Source: Escherichia coli (GTDB lineage: Bacteria; Pseudomonadota; Gammaproteobacteria; Enterobacterales; Enterobacteriaceae). From it: a stretch of DNA of 64,000 bases. A model generated the notes under the pieces. That model saw only the letters and a program-made list of their open reading frames with translations. It was not told the origin of the DNA and ran no database searches. Position 1 is the stretch's first letter. Each line of letters starts with the position of its first letter. Location of the stretch: assembly GCF_001677475.2 (NCBI RefSeq), contig NZ_CP015229.1, one strand, 5' to 3'. The position numbers and the translations under genes were made by a program. Shown piece after piece: positions 9,100 through 49,555 of the stretch.

Positions 9100-11342
<2,243 letters not shown>

Positions 11343-24810: not shown

Positions 24811-26352
<1,542 letters not shown>

Positions 26353-26420
26353 CCTTAAAGAACTGTGCTTTGCAGTGCTCACACAGATTGTCTGATGAAA
26401 ATGAGCAGTAAAACCTCTAC

Positions 26421-26497
<77 letters not shown>

Positions 26498-26539
26498 AAT
26501 TTGCACCGCAAATTTGAAGAGGTTTTAACTACATGTTAT

Positions 26540-26615
26540 GGGGCTATAGCTCAGCTGGGAGAGCGCCTGCTTTGCACGCAGGAGGTCTGCGGTTCGATCC
26601 CGCATAGCTCCACCA
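26540..26615 (+). tRNA. alaT: tRNA-Ala (UGC)
   Basis: ggggctatagctcagctgggagagcgcctgctttgcacgcagg...gctccacca, 76 nt. Confidence 0.97.
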
Positions 26616-26798
26616 TCTCTGTAGTGATTAAATAAAAAATACTTCAGAGTGTACCTGCAAAGGTTCACTGCGAAGTTTTGCTCTTTAAAAATCTGGATCA
26701 AGCTGAAAATTGAAACACTGAACAACGAAAGTTGTTCGTGAGTCTCTCAAATTTTCGCAACACGATGATGAATCGAAAGAAACATCTTCGGGTTGTGA

Positions 26799-29701
<2,903 letters not shown>

Positions 29702-29798
29702 ACAACGCCGAAGCTGTTTTGGCGGATGAGAGAAGATTTTCAGCCTGATACAGATTAAATCGACAGGTCAGAACATGACGTGTTGATAAAACAGAATT

Positions 29799-29918
29799 TG
29801 CCTGGCGGCCGTAGCGCGGTGGTCCCACCTGACCCCATGCCGAACTCAGAAGTGAAACGCCGTAGCGCCGATGGTAGTGTGGGGTCTCCCCATGCGAGAG
29901 TAGGGAACTGCCAGGCAT
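29799..29918 (+). rRNA. rrfA: 5S ribosomal RNA
   Basis: tgcctggcggccgtagcgcggtgg...gggaactgccaggcat, 120 nt. Confidence 0.98.
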
Positions 29919-34783: not shown

Positions 34784-35716
34784 TTACTTATTCTGACGCT
34801 GTGATGACATGAGAGACGTCAGAAGTCGGTCCTTTTCCTGCCACAGTGAGTTCAGCCATTGCTGAAAATGGCGCTTAAAGCTTTTGTCATTGATGTAATC
34901 GCCATGTAACTCATCGGCAATAGGCTGTAAATCCACATGTACGACAATCCGCGTCAGTTTACCGCTTAACATATCGAAGAACGGCTGACGGTTATTGTCC
35001 GGATAACACAGCGTAACATTAAGCAGTTTATCGAATTGTTTACCCAGTACATTTAGCGCCATCGCAATGCCTGCCGCCTTTGGTGGCAACAAGTTTTGAA
35101 AAGTGGAGTGGGTTTGCTGATGTTTTTCTTGCGTGAAACGGGAGCCTTCAACGAAATTGACAATGGTGGTGGGATGCAGGCGAAACTTTTCACAAGAACG
35201 CCGAGTGGTTTCAACATCTTTACCACGTCGCTCCGGATGACGTAATAAATAAGCGCGGGAATAACGCTTCATAAACGGCATATCCAGCGCCCAGCACGCC
35301 AGGCCAAGAAATGGCACCCAGGCCAGTTGTTGCTTGAGGAAATATTTATTCATCGGAATGTGCTTACGAAACAGCACGCACAGTACGACAATATCTGCCC
35401 AACTACGGTGGTTACAAATAAGCAGATACCAGTTTTTCTTACTTAACCCTTCCAGCCCGTGAACTTCCCATTGCAGGTGTGGGTTCAGATGCAGTAATAC
35501 CGCCAGACCTTCACACCAGCAATACATCATAAAATCACAAAACCGCGAAACCTTTCGCCAAATGACTGGCACAGGTAGCAATAGTTTTACAATCCCGGCA
35601 ATGATGATCGGGACGGAACAAAAAATAGTGACCAAAATGGTCAATACGATACTCAGCAAAAGGGTTATCGCAGCGAGTATTCTCGTCATAATGAATTTAT
35701 TCAAAAGGTTAGCCAT
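34784..35716 (-). CDS. yihG: PlsC-family acyltransferase YihG
   Basis: Start at [10 protein letters not shown] (310 aa); ORF track extends to 35740. Confidence 0.85.
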
Positions 35717-35806
35717 AGACAGTACGCTAAAGAAGCGCAAGGCGCAGATTTTAGCAGAAAACGCCCCAAATAACGGATGATCCTTAAGGAGAAAAATAAT
35801 TCATAT

Positions 35807-35956
35807 CTATCCACATTAGAAAAAATCCCATTATCTCAATTATTAGGGAAGGCTTTATTTTTAACTGCATGAAAAACAAAGACAAACATCATACTGTAAA
35901 AAGCATGATAATAAATTAAAAGCGATGTAAATAATTTATGCACAAAGTTATCCACA
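35807..35956. promoter_or_regulatory. polA upstream region with DnaA boxes
   Basis: ctatccaca at 35807-35815 and perfect ttatccaca at 35948-35956. Confidence 0.7.
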
Positions 35957-36079
35957 TGACGATTTGCGAGCGATCCAGAAGATCTACAAAAGATTTTCAC
36001 GAAAAGCGGTGAAAAACTCATGTTTTCATCCTGTCTGTGGCATCCTTTACTCATAATCTGATAAACAGGCACGGACATT

Positions 36080-38866
36080 ATGGTTCAGATCCCCCAAAAT
36101 CCACTTATCCTTGTAGATGGTTCATCTTATCTTTATCGCGCATATCACGCGTTTCCCCCGCTGACTAACAGCGCAGGCGAGCCGACCGGTGCGATGTATG
36201 GTGTCCTCAACATGCTGCGCAGTCTGATCATGCAATATAAACCGACGCATGCAGCGGTGGTCTTTGACGCCAAGGGAAAAACCTTTCGTGATGAACTGTT
36301 TGAACATTACAAATCACATCGCCCGCCAATGCCGGACGATCTGCGAGCACAAATCGAACCTCTGCACGCGATGGTTAAAGCGATGGGACTGCCGCTGCTG
36401 GCGGTTTCTGGCGTAGAAGCGGACGACGTTATCGGTACTCTGGCGCGCGAAGCCGAAAAAGCCGGGCGTCCGGTGCTGATCAGCACTGGCGATAAAGATA
36501 TGGCGCAGCTGGTGACGCCAAATATTACGCTTATCAATACCATGACGAATACCATCCTCGGCCCGGAAGAGGTGGTGAATAAGTACGGCGTGCCGCCAGA
36601 ACTGATCATCGACTTCCTGGCGCTGATGGGTGACTCCTCTGATAACATTCCTGGCGTACCGGGTGTCGGTGAAAAAACCGCGCAGGCATTGCTGCAAGGT
36701 CTTGGCGGGCTGGATACGCTGTATGCCGAACCAGAAAAAATTGCTGGGTTGAGCTTCCGTGGCGCGAAAACAATGGCAGCGAAGCTCGAGCAAAACAAAG
36801 AAGTTGCTTATCTCTCATACCAGCTGGCGACGATTAAAACCGATGTTGAACTGGAGCTGACCTGTGAACAACTGGAAGTGCAGCAACCGGCAGCGGAAGA
36901 GTTGTTGGGGCTGTTCAAAAAATATGAGTTCAAACGCTGGACTGCTGATGTCGAAGCGGGCAAATGGTTACAGGCCAAAGGGGCAAAACCAGCCGCGAAG
37001 CCGCAGGAAACCAGTGTTGCAGACGAAGCACCAGAAGTGACGGCAACGGTGATTTCTTATGACAACTACGTCACCATCCTTGATGAAGAAACACTGAAAG
37101 CGTGGATTGCGAAGCTGGAAAAAACGCCGGTATTTGCATTTGATACTGAAACCGACAGCCTTGATAACATCTCTGCCAACCTGGTCGGGCTTTCTTTTGC
37201 TATCGAGCCAGGCGTAGCGGCATATATTCCGGTTGCTCATGATTATCTTGATGCGCCCGATCAAATCTCTCGCGAGCGTGCACTCGAGTTGCTAAAACCG
37301 CTGCTGGAAGATGAAAAGGCGCTGAAGGTCGGGCAAAACCTGAAATACGATCGCGGTATTCTGGCGAACTACGGCATTGAACTGCGTGGGATTGCGTTTG
37401 ATACCATGCTGGAGTCCTACATTCTCAATAGCGTTGCCGGGCGTCACGATATGGACAGCCTCGCGGAACGTTGGTTGAAGCACAAAACCATCACTTTTGA
37501 AGAGATTGCTGGTAAAGGCAAAAATCAACTGACCTTTAACCAGATTGCCCTCGAAGAGGCCGGACGTTACGCCGCCGAAGATGCTGATGTCACCTTGCAG
37601 TTGCATCTGAAAATGTGGCCGGACCTGCAAAAACACAAAGGGCCGTTGAACGTCTTCGAGAATATCGAAATGCCGCTGGTGCCGGTGCTTTCACGCATTG
37701 AACGTAACGGTGTGAAGATCGATCCGAAAGTTCTGCATAATCATTCTGAAGAGCTCACTCTGCGCCTGGCGGAGCTGGAAAAGAAAGCGCATGAAATTGC
37801 AGGTGAAGAATTTAACCTTTCTTCCACCAAGCAGTTACAAACCATTCTGTTTGAAAAACAGGGCATTAAACCGCTGAAGAAAACGCCGGGTGGCGCGCCG
37901 TCAACGTCGGAAGAGGTACTGGAAGAACTGGCGCTGGACTATCCGTTGCCAAAAGTGATTCTGGAGTATCGTGGTCTGGCGAAGCTGAAGTCGACTTACA
38001 CCGACAAGCTGCCGCTGATGATCAACCCGAAAACCGGGCGTGTGCATACCTCTTATCACCAGGCAGTAACTGCAACGGGACGTTTATCGTCAACCGATCC
38101 TAACCTGCAAAACATTCCGGTGCGTAACGAAGAAGGTCGTCGTATCCGCCAGGCGTTTATTGCGCCAGAGGATTATGTGATTGTCTCAGCGGACTACTCG
38201 CAGATTGAACTGCGCATTATGGCGCATCTCTCGCGTGACAAAGGCTTGCTGACCGCATTCGCGGAAGGAAAAGATATCCACCGAGCTACGGCGGCAGAAG
38301 TGTTTGGTTTGCCTCTGGAAACCGTCACCAGCGAGCAACGCCGTAGCGCGAAAGCGATCAACTTTGGTCTGATTTATGGCATGAGTGCTTTCGGTCTGGC
38401 GCGGCAATTGAACATTCCACGTAAAGAAGCGCAGAAGTACATGGACCTTTACTTCGAACGCTACCCTGGCGTGCTGGAGTATATGGAACGCACCCGTGCT
38501 CAGGCGAAAGAGCAGGGCTACGTTGAAACGCTGGACGGACGCCGTCTGTATCTGCCGGATATCAAATCCAGCAATGGTGCTCGTCGTGCAGCGGCTGAAC
38601 GTGCAGCTATTAACGCGCCAATGCAGGGAACCGCCGCCGACATTATCAAACGGGCGATGATTGCCGTTGATGCGTGGTTACAGGCTGAGCAACCGCGTGT
38701 GCGTATGATCATGCAGGTACACGATGAACTGGTATTTGAAGTTCATAAAGATGATGTCGATGCCGTCGCGAAGCAGATTCATCAACTGATGGAAAACTGT
38801 ACCCGTCTGGATGTGCCGTTGCTGGTGGAAGTGGGGAGTGGTGAAAACTGGGATCAGGCGCACTAA
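36080..38866 (+). CDS. polA: DNA polymerase I
   Basis: 928 aa; [25 protein letters not shown]-terminus. Confidence 0.98.
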
Positions 38867-39013
38867 GATTCGCCTGAACATGCCCTTTTTTCGTAAGTAA
38901 GCAACATAAGCTGTCACGTTTTGTGATGGCTATTAGAAATTCCTATGCAACAACTGAAAAAAAATTACAAAAAGTGCTTTCTGAACTGAACAAAAAAGAG
39001 TAAAGTTAGTCGC

Positions 39014-39122
39014 GTAGGGTACAGAGGTAAGATGTTCTATCTTTCAGACCTTTTACTTCACGTAATCGGATTTGGCTGAATATTTTAGCCGCCCCAGTCA
39101 GTAATGACTGGGGCGTTTTTTA
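39014..39122 (+). ncRNA. spf: Spot 42 small RNA
   Basis: gtagggtacagaggtaagatgttctatctttcagacc...gccccagtcagtaatgactggggcgtttttt, 109 nt with its own terminator. Confidence 0.95.
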
Positions 39123-40150: not shown

Positions 40151-40393
40151 ATAGAGCGAGGACGCTAACAGGAACAATGACTCAGGATGAGGGTCAGGAG
40201 CGCCAGGAGGCGAAGACAGAGGATTGTCAGGAAGACAAACGTCCGGAGACGTAATTAAACGGAAATGGAATCAACACGGATTGTTCCGGCTAATGGAAAA
40301 ACAGGGTGTGTTGGCGGCCTGCAAGGATTGTAAGACCCGTTAAGGGTTATGAGTCAGGAAAAAAGGCGACAGAGTAATCTGTCGCCTTTTTTC
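40151..40393 (+). ncRNA. csrC: CsrC small RNA (CsrA-sequestering)
   Basis: Many GGA motifs (caggatgagggtcaggagcgccaggaggcgaag...); ends in gcgacagagtaatctgtcgcctttttt terminator. Confidence 0.9.
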
Positions 40394-40461
40394 TTTGCTT
40401 GCTTTCTGTTAGATTCCGCCGCAAATCTATACTGAATAAAACGGCTAAAAGACGAACCATT

Positions 40462-47296: not shown

Positions 47297-47364
47297 TGCA
47301 CCATGATGTGAATGTTGCACCAATATAGTGCTTCAATGGAAACATTAAGCACCATATTGGTGCA
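47297..47364. promoter_or_regulatory. NtrC enhancer sites upstream of glnAp2
   Basis: tgcaccatgatgtg (47297-47310), tgcaccaatatagtgct (47316-47332) and gcaccatattggtgca (47349-47364), roughly 110 and 140 bp from the promoter. Confidence 0.8.
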
Positions 47365-47515
47365 ATGACCTTTGGATAACCCTTTTTATGCTCCGTGAAA
47401 GCGATCACAAAGGGACTCTGCAATACTTGTTTGCGGAGGATGTTTGTGATCCTGTTTTGTAGTGCGATTAATCCGTGTACAATAACGCGCTATTTCTAAT
47501 GCCTGAGGCAAAGTT

Positions 47516-49339
47516 GTGATCGAAAAATTGCGTAATATCGCCATCATCGCGCACGTAGACCATGGTAAAACCACCCTGGTAGACAAGCTGCTCCAACAAT
47601 CCGGTACGTTCGACTCTCGTGCCGAAACCCAAGAGCGCGTGATGGACTCCAACGATTTGGAGAAAGAGCGTGGGATTACCATCCTCGCGAAAAACACCGC
47701 TATCAAATGGAATGATTACCGTATCAACATCGTTGATACCCCGGGGCACGCCGACTTCGGTGGTGAAGTTGAACGTGTAATGTCCATGGTAGACTCAGTG
47801 CTGCTGGTGGTTGACGCATTTGACGGCCCGATGCCGCAAACGCGCTTCGTAACCAAAAAAGCGTTTGCTTACGGCCTGAAGCCGATTGTTGTTATCAACA
47901 AAGTTGACCGCCCTGGCGCGCGTCCTGACTGGGTTGTGGATCAGGTATTCGATCTGTTCGTTAACCTCGACGCGACCGACGAGCAGCTGGACTTCCCGAT
48001 CGTTTACGCTTCTGCGCTGAACGGTATCGCGGGTCTGGACCACGAAGATATGGCGGAAGACATGACTCCGCTGTATCAGGCGATTGTTGACCACGTTCCT
48101 GCGCCGGACGTTGACCTTGACGGTCCGTTCCAGATGCAGATTTCTCAGCTCGATTACAACAGCTATGTTGGCGTTATCGGCATTGGCCGCATCAAGCGCG
48201 GTAAAGTGAAGCCGAACCAGCAGGTTACTATCATCGATAGCGAAGGCAAAACCCGCAACGCGAAAGTCGGTAAAGTGCTGGGCCACCTCGGTCTGGAACG
48301 TATCGAAACTGATCTGGCGGAAGCTGGCGATATCGTTGCGATCACGGGCCTTGGCGAACTGAACATTTCTGACACCGTTTGCGACACGCAAAACGTTGAA
48401 GCGCTGCCGGCACTCTCCGTTGATGAGCCGACCGTTTCTATGTTCTTCTGCGTTAACACCTCACCGTTCTGCGGTAAAGAAGGTAAGTTCGTAACGTCTC
48501 GTCAGATCCTGGATCGTCTGAACAAAGAACTGGTACACAACGTTGCGCTGCGCGTAGAAGAAACCGAAGACGCCGATGCGTTCCGCGTTTCTGGTCGTGG
48601 CGAACTGCACCTGTCTGTTCTGATCGAAAACATGCGTCGTGAAGGTTTCGAACTGGCGGTATCCCGTCCGAAAGTTATCTTCCGTGAAATCGACGGTCGT
48701 AAACAAGAGCCGTATGAAAACGTGACTCTGGACGTTGAAGAACAGCATCAGGGTTCTGTAATGCAGGCGCTGGGCGAACGTAAAGGCGACCTGAAAAACA
48801 TGAATCCAGACGGTAAAGGCCGCGTACGTCTCGACTACGTGATCCCAAGCCGTGGTCTGATTGGCTTCCGTTCTGAGTTCATGACCATGACTTCCGGTAC
48901 TGGTCTGCTGTACTCCACCTTCAGCCACTACGACGACGTACGTCCGGGTGAAGTGGGTCAGCGTCAGAACGGCGTACTGATCTCTAACGGTCAGGGTAAA
49001 GCGGTCGCGTTCGCGCTGTTCGGTCTGCAGGATCGCGGTAAGCTGTTCCTCGGTCACGGTGCAGAAGTTTACGAAGGTCAGATTATCGGTATTCATAGCC
49101 GCTCTAACGACCTGACTGTAAACTGCCTGACCGGTAAGAAACTGACCAACATGCGTGCTTCCGGTACTGACGAAGCCGTTGTTCTGGTTCCGCCTATCCG
49201 CATGACTCTGGAACAAGCTCTGGAGTTCATCGATGATGACGAACTGGTAGAAGTGACTCCGACCTCTATCCGTATTCGTAAACGTCACCTGACGGAAAAT
49301 GATCGTCGTCGCGCTAACCGCGCACCGAAAGACGATTAA
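47516..49339 (+). CDS. typA: Ribosome-associated translational GTPase TypA/BipA
   Basis: GTG start; [17 protein letters not shown]1 motif; 607 aa. Confidence 0.97.
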
Positions 49340-49356
49340 TTTCGTTTTTTAGCCAT

Positions 49357-49389
49357 AAAAAACCTGCCAGCGATGGCAGGTTTTTTTTT
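49357..49389 (+). terminator. Intrinsic terminator after typA
   Basis: cctgccagcgatggcagg hairpin followed by nine T. Confidence 0.85.
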
Positions 49390-49555
49390 ACCTGTCGTGA
49401 GCGCACACCAATGCGAGTATCTCCCTTATAAGTCTGTGATTACGTCAATAGAGAGCTTTGTCACAATTATCTGCAAAGTCATACGCCGTTAATTGCTTTC
49501 TTTTTTGGCGTAAGCGTAAGATGCTTCATCTGGTTTAAACCAAAAGGATTAAACA

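What the first reader, a model, noticed from the sequence alone, without database searches (positions are those of the whole stretch)
35807..35956. Two DnaA-box matches upstream of polA
A perfect consensus ttatccaca (35948-35956) and an 8/9 match ctatccaca (35807-35815) lie in the yihG-polA divergent region, consistent with reported DnaA control of polA. Listed because these sites are easy to overlook in annotation.
Basis: partly seen in the sequence, partly recalled or inferred. Interest (0 to 1): 0.2.

Follow-up and report, generated by a model that had tools for sequence, protein, structure and literature searches.

The report
DnaA binding module upstream of polA
The two reported sites are real and belong to an already published, strongly occupied binding site for the replication initiator DnaA in front of the DNA polymerase I gene; the new part is that its three-site layout with a fixed 142-bp spacing is conserved far beyond E. 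coli.

Summary
Both 9-mers are at the stated coordinates.

TTATGCACA-aag-TTATCCACA is exactly the "double DnaA box" under a published E. coli K-12 DnaA ChIP-seq peak. That peak has 123-fold enrichment, and its centre maps to window 35945. DnaA stimulation of polA was reported in 1997.

A published TSS maps to window 36052, behind a conserved extended -10 (TGGCATCCT). The double box is therefore centred near -106.

Comparison of 80 polA loci adds something I did not find in the literature. In 28 loci from Enterobacterales, Vibrionaceae and Alteromonadales:
- The distal box and the perfect box are both kept, on the same strand, 141-143 bp apart in most.
- The spacer is otherwise unconserved apart from a central IHF-type core, which is equidistant from the distal and partner boxes.
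- The upstream gene differs between lineages.

This parts list resembles datA.

Verdict: a known DnaA operator of polA, correctly read. The wider folded three-box architecture is inferred, not proven.

The parts
35807..35815 (+). Distal DnaA box CTATCCACA (8/9), centred about -241 from the polA TSS
   Evidence: T.TCCACA is invariant in the 16-sequence alignment. A same-strand box lies 141-143 bp upstream of the perfect box in all Enterobacterales and Vibrionaceae loci, and 127-148 bp upstream in Alteromonadales. The same 9-mer is the strong half of a DARS2 double box (PMC11317965 Table 1).
35862..35874 (-). Central IHF-type core (minus strand TTTCATGCAGTTA, 7/9 to WATCAANNNNTTR); inferred bend centre near 35875
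   Evidence: The core sits at the same offset in all 14 Enterobacterales loci: 55-56 bp from the distal box start and 86-88 bp from the perfect box. It is a 9/9 match in L005, L011, L012, L013, L014, L021 and L051. T35870 is invariant, and T35862 and A35872 are nearly invariant. Within Escherichia, differences fall only in the NNNN positions. The match is weak in this window, and no IHF occupancy data were found.
35936..35944 (+). Partner DnaA box TTATGCACA (8/9; fits TTWTNCACA), the upstream half of the double box
   Evidence: It is named as part of the polA double DnaA box in PMC11317965 Table 1. A weaker box ending in (C/A)ACA sits at this position, 3 bp before the perfect box, in all module-bearing loci.
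35948..35956 (+). Perfect DnaA box TTATCCACA, the downstream half of the double box, centred about -100 from the TSS
   Evidence: The ChIP-seq peak centre maps to 35945. The box is invariant in 28 polA loci across three orders.
35972..35985 (.). Pair of GATC (Dam) sites 9 bp apart (35972-35975 and 35981-35984); the second lies within AGATCT (35980-35985)
   Evidence: A GATC pair at +24/+25 and +33/+34 from the perfect box recurs in Escherichia, Enterobacter and Superficieibacter loci. In Vibrionaceae and Photorhabdus, GATC sites instead follow the distal box, at -127 and -116. SeqA or ATP-DnaA binding here is inference only.
36038..36046 (+). Probable extended -10 element of the polA promoter, TGgCATCCT
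   Evidence: TGGCAT[CG]CT is found in nearly all module-bearing loci, at 47-137 bp from the perfect box. The published TSS lies 6 nt after its last T.
36052..36052 (+). polA transcription start site (plus or minus 1 nt)
   Evidence: SMRT-Cappable-seq Supplementary Data 1 (PMC6131387) gives a TSS at NC_000913.3:4046938 forward, with 194 reads in M9 and 299 in rich medium, a TTS at 4050006, and genes b3863|b3864. The conversion to window coordinates uses the offset 4010886. That data set has no other TSS between 4046600 and 4047099.
36080..38866 (+). polA coding sequence (928 aa), the regulated gene

Best explanation
This is the DnaA operator of the polA promoter. DnaA binds as a cooperative pair to the double box at 35936-35956, centred about 106 bp upstream of the polA start site at 36052. 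A third DnaA binds the distal box at 35807-35815. A bend at the midpoint, set by an IHF-type core at 35862-35874, folds the 142-bp interval so that the distal box lies beside the weak partner box. This gives a compact, very stable three-DnaA complex. From one face of the helix, the complex helps RNA polymerase use a weak promoter that has an extended -10 and a poor -35. Pol I supply, and the read-through Spot 42 transcript, would then rise with available DnaA. The reported effect is in stationary phase. The same complex also holds DnaA 121 kb from oriC. Shown: the sequences, their non-random occurrence, in vivo DnaA occupancy of the double box, the TSS, and conservation of every part and of the spacing. 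Inferred: occupancy of the distal box, the bend and the protein that makes it, and the contact that activates transcription.
For: Boxes and statistics. In vivo occupancy: PMC11317965 Table 1 gives the polA peak at 4046831 with 123-fold coverage, compared with oriC 174-218, datA 213, purH 124, dnaA 5 and nrdA 14. The peak maps onto the double box. At purH, mutating either half of the double box, or adding 1 bp between the halves, abolished binding. DnaA stimulation of polA: Quinones 1997, as cited. TSS: 4046938, which is window 36052. Conservation: the perfect box, partner box, distal box and TGGCAT[CG]CT are present in 28 of 80 polA loci, from Escherichia to Vibrio, Rheinheimera and Pseudoalteromonas. 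The distal-to-perfect spacing is 141-143 bp in all 20 Enterobacterales and Vibrionaceae sequences (window included), although the spacer sequence is otherwise not alignable. The upstream gene differs between lineages: yihG, dsbA, a hemB-side ORF, or an elbB-like gene. The module therefore travels with polA. The IHF-type core is a 9/9 match in 7 loci at one fixed offset, and its inferred dyad is 64-65 bp from both the distal and the partner box centres. The box-to-promoter distance varies from 47 to 137 bp with a weak 10.5-11 bp periodicity: Rayleigh p of 0.005-0.015 on 15 distinct values, with no signal at 9, 12 or 13 bp.
Against: The regulatory effect appears small or conditional. The main regulon members stayed at wild-type levels when datA, DARS1 and DARS2 were deleted (PMC12371093). 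I could not read the 1997 paper itself. A position near -106 is far upstream for a simple class I activator. In this window the IHF-type core is only 7/9 and ties with other 7/9 matches in the AT-rich spacer. I found no IHF ChIP evidence for this locus in the sources I could open. ChIP-seq cannot separate the distal box from the double box. A second DnaA ChIP-seq study (PMC12926920) does not name polA in its text, and its table is not held. The loci are phylogenetically related, so counts of loci overstate the number of independent observations.
Confidence: 0.8

Rival explanations
1. The primary role of the module is control of DnaA itself, not of polA. It would be a datA-like, or more loosely DARS-like, chromosomal locus that titrates DnaA near oriC or changes its nucleotide state through an IHF-folded multi-DnaA complex. 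Its position next to polA would be secondary.
For: ChIP enrichment of 123-fold is in the range of DARS2, datA and oriC, and far above classical promoter sites such as dnaA (5) and nrdA (14). The parts list matches minimal datA: same-orientation boxes, one IHF site between them, and spacing that matters. In MG1655 datA, box 2 with its weak partner, the minus-strand 9/9 IHF site and box 3 span about 162 bp, compared with 141 bp here. The locus lies in the oriC-proximal zone enriched in DnaA boxes (PMC12371093). The reported effect on polA expression is small.
Against: The module stays immediately upstream of the polA promoter across three orders while the other flank changes. The weak helical phasing relative to the -10 element points to a promoter-linked function. 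No assay of DnaA-ATP hydrolysis, nucleotide exchange or initiation timing exists for this locus in anything I could read. DARS cores need oppositely oriented boxes, whereas here all three boxes point the same way. The two roles are not mutually exclusive.
Confidence: 0.2
2. The distal box serves the divergent gene yihG, whose start codon is 91 bp away, and is unrelated to the polA double box.
For: The box is closer to the yihG ATG (35716) than to the polA TSS. The spacer is a divergent promoter region.
Against: A distal box at the same 141-143 bp spacing is present where yihG is absent from the flank, in Providencia (dsbA upstream) and Vibrio, and at 129-146 bp in Pseudoalteromonas and Rheinheimera. 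No yihG TSS was reported in the SMRT-Cappable-seq tables.
Confidence: 0.07
3. The matches are chance 9-mers in AT-rich intergenic DNA and have no function.
For: Single DnaA-box matches are common. The window holds 25 matches with at most one mismatch, and only 13 of 32 perfect boxes in E. coli are ChIP-bound.
Against: Only 1 of 20,000 shuffles gives three boxes. Published ChIP-seq shows direct occupancy. The boxes are invariant across three orders of Gammaproteobacteria.
Confidence: 0.01

Closest known systems
Double DnaA boxes of the E. coli DnaA regulon (purH, nrdA, mioC, nrdD; Stringer, Fitzgerald & Wade 2024)
   Same: Two same-orientation 9-mers 3 bp apart, one of them a perfect TTATCCACA, lying upstream of a gene of DNA or nucleotide metabolism. 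This very site is listed in their Table 1. The nrdA site uses the same two 9-mers and the same aag spacer in swapped order.
   Different: That description covers only the 21-bp pair. The conserved distal box 141 bp upstream, the central IHF-type core and the fixed spacing are not part of it.
datA (DnaA-ATP hydrolysis locus; boxes 7, 2 and 3 plus one IHF site)
   Same: It has same-orientation DnaA boxes flanking a single IHF site, with functionally important spacing, a postulated IHF-made loop joining DnaA on the two arms, an oriC-proximal position, and very high ChIP signal.
   Different: datA lies downstream of tRNA genes, not in front of a regulated promoter. Its span is about 162 bp rather than 141 bp, and the double box is on the other side of the IHF site relative to the core's orientation. 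datA's IHF core is 9/9 whereas this window's is 7/9. No hydrolysis activity is known for the polA site.
DARS1/DARS2 (DnaA-reactivating sequences)
   Same: They are DnaA-box clusters in promoter regions (uvrB, mutH). DARS2 uses IHF and Fis, and one of its strong boxes is CTATCCACA, the same 9-mer as the distal box here.
   Different: The DARS core requires oppositely oriented boxes I and II. Here all three boxes are direct repeats.
oriC left half (R1 - IHF site - R5M/low-affinity array)
   Same: A high-affinity box, an IHF bend and further DnaA sites cooperate, and GATC sites are present nearby.
   Different: I saw no duplex-unwinding element, 13-mers or DnaA-trio periodicity next to the boxes on reading the sequence. 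The site has only three boxes.

Membership tests
DnaA-bound 'double DnaA box' site | Two DnaA-box 9-mers in the same orientation, separated by 2 or 3 bp | tested here: met
   TTATGCACA (35936-35944), then aag, then TTATCCACA (35948-35956).
DnaA-bound 'double DnaA box' site | DnaA occupancy in vivo | not testable with these tools
   Published for the identical K-12 sequence: peak at 4046831, 123-fold over control (PMC11317965). Not measured for the strain of this window.
DnaA-regulated promoter (DnaA regulon) | A DnaA site positioned upstream of a mapped promoter of the gene | tested here: met
   The TSS at 4046938 maps to window 36052. The double box is centred at -106, and the conserved extended -10 is at 36038-36046.
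DnaA-regulated promoter (DnaA regulon) | Transcription changes when DnaA level or activity, or the box itself, is changed | not testable with these tools
   Reported by Quinones et al. 1997 and known here only through citations; the paper is not held. The main regulon members stayed at wild-type levels in datA/DARS deletion strains.
datA-type locus (IHF-dependent DnaA-ATP hydrolysis) | Several same-orientation DnaA boxes on both sides of one IHF binding site, at constrained spacing | tested here: inconclusive
   The boxes and the constrained spacing are met. The IHF core is 9/9 in 7 related loci but only 7/9 in this window.
datA-type locus (IHF-dependent DnaA-ATP hydrolysis) | IHF binds the site in vivo or in vitro | not tested
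   There is no mention of polA or yihG in the IHF genome-wide papers or supplements I could open.
datA-type locus (IHF-dependent DnaA-ATP hydrolysis) | The locus stimulates hydrolysis of DnaA-bound ATP and represses untimely initiation | not testable with these tools
   This needs a biochemical assay and flow cytometry.
DARS-type locus | Core with oppositely oriented DnaA boxes I and II plus box III | tested here: not met
   All three boxes are on the + strand. No minus-strand box with at most one mismatch lies in the spacer.

The most novel reading that the evidence does not exclude
The polA-upstream module (distal box, central IHF-type bend, double box, about 142 bp) is a further chromosomal DnaA-control locus of the datA kind, older and more widely conserved than datA itself. 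It would fold three DnaA molecules together to titrate DnaA or alter its nucleotide state close to oriC. Activation of polA would be a by-product or a second output.
Probability: 0.15. Interest if true: 0.65.

Novelty: already known. Interest (0 to 1): 0.3.

Why it matters
The site itself confirms textbook and recent ChIP-seq knowledge. Its practical value is that annotation omits it: nothing was annotated under the match in the 12 E. coli records listed.

The added value is comparative. One of the strongest DnaA-bound places outside oriC, datA and DARS2 has a fixed three-box geometry with a central bend site. That geometry has been preserved since the common ancestor of Enterobacterales, Vibrionales and Alteromonadales. 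This gives a concrete, testable reason for its unusually high occupancy. It also offers a simple natural system, in front of a gene with a single mapped TSS, for asking two questions: how DnaA activates transcription, which the ChIP-seq authors call poorly understood, and whether promoter-linked sites also contribute to DnaA titration.

Tried and rejected
- **Promoter scan.** The simple sigma-70 consensus scan found no promoter in 35600-36200. The promoter was instead placed from a published TSS and a conserved extended -10.
- **Second promoter next to the perfect box.** I considered TTGCGA at 35964-35969 with TACAAA at 35985-35990. I rejected it because SMRT-Cappable-seq reports no TSS at 40468xx and the spacer would be only 15 bp.
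- **Sigma-54 reading of TGGCAT.** Rejected: the GC of a -12 element is not at a consistent position across taxa (read).
- **RNA element.** No Rfam family matches the spacer, even at an E-value of 10.
- **Origin-like reading.** I saw no 3-nt DnaA-trio periodicity or 13-mers next to the boxes; GAT triplets are 9-11 nt apart (read).
- **Small ORF.** A 16-codon ORF at 35869-35919 is kept in E. albertii but not in Citrobacter or Enterobacter, and it has no TSS. I treat it as spurious.
- **IHF occupancy.** polA and yihG are absent from the PMC8407004 text and supplements. The PMC3333857 supplements are not held. PMC13036160 contains nothing on the locus.
- **Sources not held or empty.** Quinones 1997 is not held. 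Thomason 2015 is not held. The supplements of the Cappable-seq paper PMC4782308 have no entry for the locus. The peak table of the second DnaA ChIP-seq study is not held.
- **Literature searches.** Searches for 'polA promoter' and 'upstream of polA' together with DnaA returned nothing, and a search for 'polAp' returned only unrelated papers.

Full report
**Observation.** The perfect DnaA box TTATCCACA is at 35948-35956 and the 8/9 box CTATCCACA at 35807-35815, both on the + strand. They lie in the 363-bp spacer between yihG (34784-35716, minus strand, 310 codons) and polA (36080-38866). The window is an E. coli-type chromosome. The region is 99% identical to MG1655 with a constant coordinate offset of 4010886. 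The best match among 5,426 complete E. coli genomes is 99.3-99.5%.

In 20,000 dinucleotide-preserving shuffles of the spacer, a perfect box arose 68 times and three boxes with at most one mismatch arose once. The 35936-35956 pair is the only closely spaced tandem pair in the whole window.

**What is already known.**
- Stringer, Fitzgerald and Wade 2024 (PMC11317965) found 16 DnaA-bound regions in E. coli K-12.
- One of them is 'polA' at 4046831, with 123-fold coverage over control. For comparison: oriC 174-218, datA 213, DARS2 78-213, purH 124, mioC 25, nrdA 14, dnaA 5.
- The associated motif is tTTATGCACAaagTTATCCACAt. In NC_000913.3 this 21-mer is at 4046822-4046842. The table footnote says NC_000913.2, but the coordinates fit version 3. 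The peak centre therefore falls at window 35945, inside the pair.
- The same paper shows at purH that both halves and the 2-3 bp spacing are required. It also notes that only 13 of the 32 perfect boxes in the genome are bound.

The functional unit is therefore the pair, not the single perfect 9-mer. Reviews cite Quinones et al. 1997 for DnaA stimulating polA transcription in stationary phase. I could not read that paper.

**Promoter.** The simple sigma-70 scan found nothing. SMRT-Cappable-seq (PMC6131387, Supplementary Data 1) reports one polA start, NC_000913.3:4046938 forward. It has 194 reads in M9 and 299 in rich medium. The transcript ends at 4050006 and covers b3863|b3864, that is polA plus spf. 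This start maps to window 36052.

Six nucleotides upstream ends the motif TGGCATCCT (36038-36046). It reads as an extended -10 (TG-n-CATCCT, with A at -11 and T at -7). As TGGCAT[CG]CT it is the most conserved element between the boxes and the start codon in all related loci. Relative to this start:
- the double box is centred at about -106;
- the perfect box at about -100;
- the distal box at about -241.

**Comparative analysis.** A scan of one genome per species with the first 200 residues of PolA gave 80 loci. The perfect box is present upstream of polA in Escherichia, Citrobacter, Enterobacter, Superficieibacter, Klebsiella, Photorhabdus, Providencia, Acerihabitans, Vibrio, Aliivibrio, Enterovibrio, Salinivibrio, Rheinheimera, Pseudoalteromonas, Idiomarina-type genera, Bowmanella, Lacimicrobium and Parashewanella. 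It is absent in Pasteurellaceae, Pseudomonas, Halomonas and other more distant groups.

In 28 loci, three things hold:
- A weaker partner box ending in (C/A)ACA precedes the perfect box by 3 bp.
- A distal box (NTATCCACA or TTTTCCACA) lies on the same strand.
- The start-to-start distance is 141-143 bp in every Enterobacterales and Vibrionaceae locus and 127-148 bp in Alteromonadales.

The intervening 120 bp is 60-80% A+T and is otherwise not conserved. By contrast, the distance from the boxes to the -10 motif varies from 47 to 137 bp. The gene on the far side also differs between lineages: yihG, dsbA, a hemB-side ORF, an elbB-like gene or a cytochrome c-like gene. The module therefore belongs to polA, and the distal box is not a yihG feature.

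**The central element.** The only conserved columns inside the spacer form TAAnnnnTTGA. This is the reverse complement of the IHF core WATCAANNNNTTR.
- It is a 9/9 match at one fixed offset (55-56 bp from the distal box, 86-88 bp from the perfect box) in seven loci: an Enterobacter sp., two Photorhabdus, Providencia, Acerihabitans, Aliivibrio and Enterovibrio.
- It is a 7-8/9 match at the same offset in the other Enterobacterales, including this window (35862-35874, minus strand TTTCATGCAGTTA).
- Within Escherichia, the differences in this 13-mer fall only in the four N positions.
- In several Alteromonadales, an 8-9/9 core sits at about the same place on the other strand.

From my recollection of the IHF-H' crystal structure, the bend centre lies about 1 bp 5' of the W position. 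On that basis the centre is 64-65 bp from the distal box centre and 65-67 bp from the partner box centre in all 14 Enterobacterales loci. A U-turn there would lay the distal box alongside the double box.

The statistic is modest. The strictly best core is central in 11 of 29 loci and tied in 13, while central positions make up 12% of positions. The loci are also related to one another. I found no IHF occupancy data for this locus.

**GATC sites.** Two GATC sites 9 bp apart follow the double box (35972-35975 and 35981-35984, the second within AGATCT). This pair recurs at the same offsets in Escherichia, Enterobacter and Superficieibacter. In Vibrionaceae and Photorhabdus, GATC sites instead follow the distal box at -127 and -116. 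This would permit SeqA or ATP-DnaA involvement after passage of the replication fork, but nothing here tests that.

**Mechanism proposed.**
- DnaA binds cooperatively to the double box. This is shown by ChIP-seq.
- A third DnaA binds the distal box. This is inferred from conservation.
- A central bend, made by IHF or another bending agent, joins the two arms into one complex. This is inferred from the fixed spacing and the conserved core.
- That architecture would explain why this site gives a signal like purH, DARS2 and datA rather than like dnaA or nrdA.
- The complex stimulates a weak extended -10 promoter from one helical face. The box-to-promoter distances show weak 10.5-11 bp periodicity, with p of 0.005-0.015 on 15 distinct values and no signal at 9, 12 or 13 bp.
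- IHF is more abundant in stationary phase (my knowledge, not tested here). This would fit the reported growth-phase dependence.

**Evidence against a strong regulatory role.**
- The main DnaA-regulon members stayed at wild-type levels when datA, DARS1 and DARS2 were deleted.
- A position near -106 is far upstream for a direct contact with RNA polymerase.

**Rivals.**
- The main rival is that the module chiefly controls DnaA, by titration or a datA-like activity. In MG1655, datA has box 7, box 2 with a weak partner, a minus-strand 9/9 IHF site and box 3 over about 162 bp. Spacing there is functionally important, and IHF looping is postulated. The persistent linkage to the polA promoter argues for a promoter function, but the two roles can coexist.
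- A DARS-type reading fails, because all boxes share one orientation.
- A yihG-specific role for the distal box is contradicted by the changing upstream gene.
- Chance is excluded.

**Novelty.** The boxes, their occupancy and the link to polA are already known. I did not find the distal box, the fixed 142-bp spacing, the central IHF-type core or the cross-order conservation described in the searchable library. That library lacks most subscription papers, including the 1997 study. The finding is therefore ordinary and correctly interpreted, with a moderately interesting and testable extension.

Noticed in passing
window 36052-39120: Published long-read data show a single transcript from the polA TSS through polA to the end of spf (Spot 42; Rfam match 39004-39122). 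If so, DnaA input at the polA promoter could also feed Spot 42 read-through RNA.
   Followed up: partly
whole window (1-64000): There are 25 DnaA-box matches with at most one mismatch, against 12.3 expected; only 1 of 100 shuffles reaches 25. This fits the reported enrichment of DnaA boxes in the oriC-proximal part of the chromosome (PMC12371093). The other 22 sites were not examined.
   Followed up: no
window 35869-35919 (+): A 16-codon ORF (MKNKDKHHTVKSMIIN) lies inside the spacer and starts within the IHF-type core. The frame is kept in E. albertii but not in Citrobacter or Enterobacter, and no TSS lies upstream. It is probably spurious.
   Followed up: partly
window 36011-36027: A small palindrome, GAAAA-N7-TTTTC, overlaps the -35 region of the polA promoter (-41 to -25). 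The block AAAAACTCATGTTTTCATCC is nearly identical in Escherichia, Citrobacter and Enterobacter. It could be a site for another regulator.
   Followed up: no
MG1655 nrdA upstream (PMC11317965 Table 1), compared with window 35936-35956: The nrdA double box TTATCCACAaagTTATGCACT uses nearly the same two 9-mers and the same aag spacer as the polA site, but in swapped order. ChIP signal is 14-fold at nrdA against 123-fold at polA, so order or context matters.
   Followed up: no
MG1655 datA, L083 493-675: In datA, the inferred IHF bend centre (about 583) is 86 bp from the weak partner of box 2 and 88 bp from box 3. This is the same 'single box opposite the weak partner' symmetry inferred for the polA module (64-65 bp arms).
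   Followed up: partly
window 35400-36400: No complete E. coli genome among 5,426 is more than 99.3-99.5% identical to this stretch. The window therefore probably comes from Shigella or from an E. coli lineage not in that collection.
   Followed up: no
window 9454-9705, 47327-47434, 49324-49392: Rfam gathering-score matches to the sRNA families Erse, ES222 and STnc370. The window also holds the rrn operon (24811-29916) and CsrC (40151-40404).
   Followed up: no
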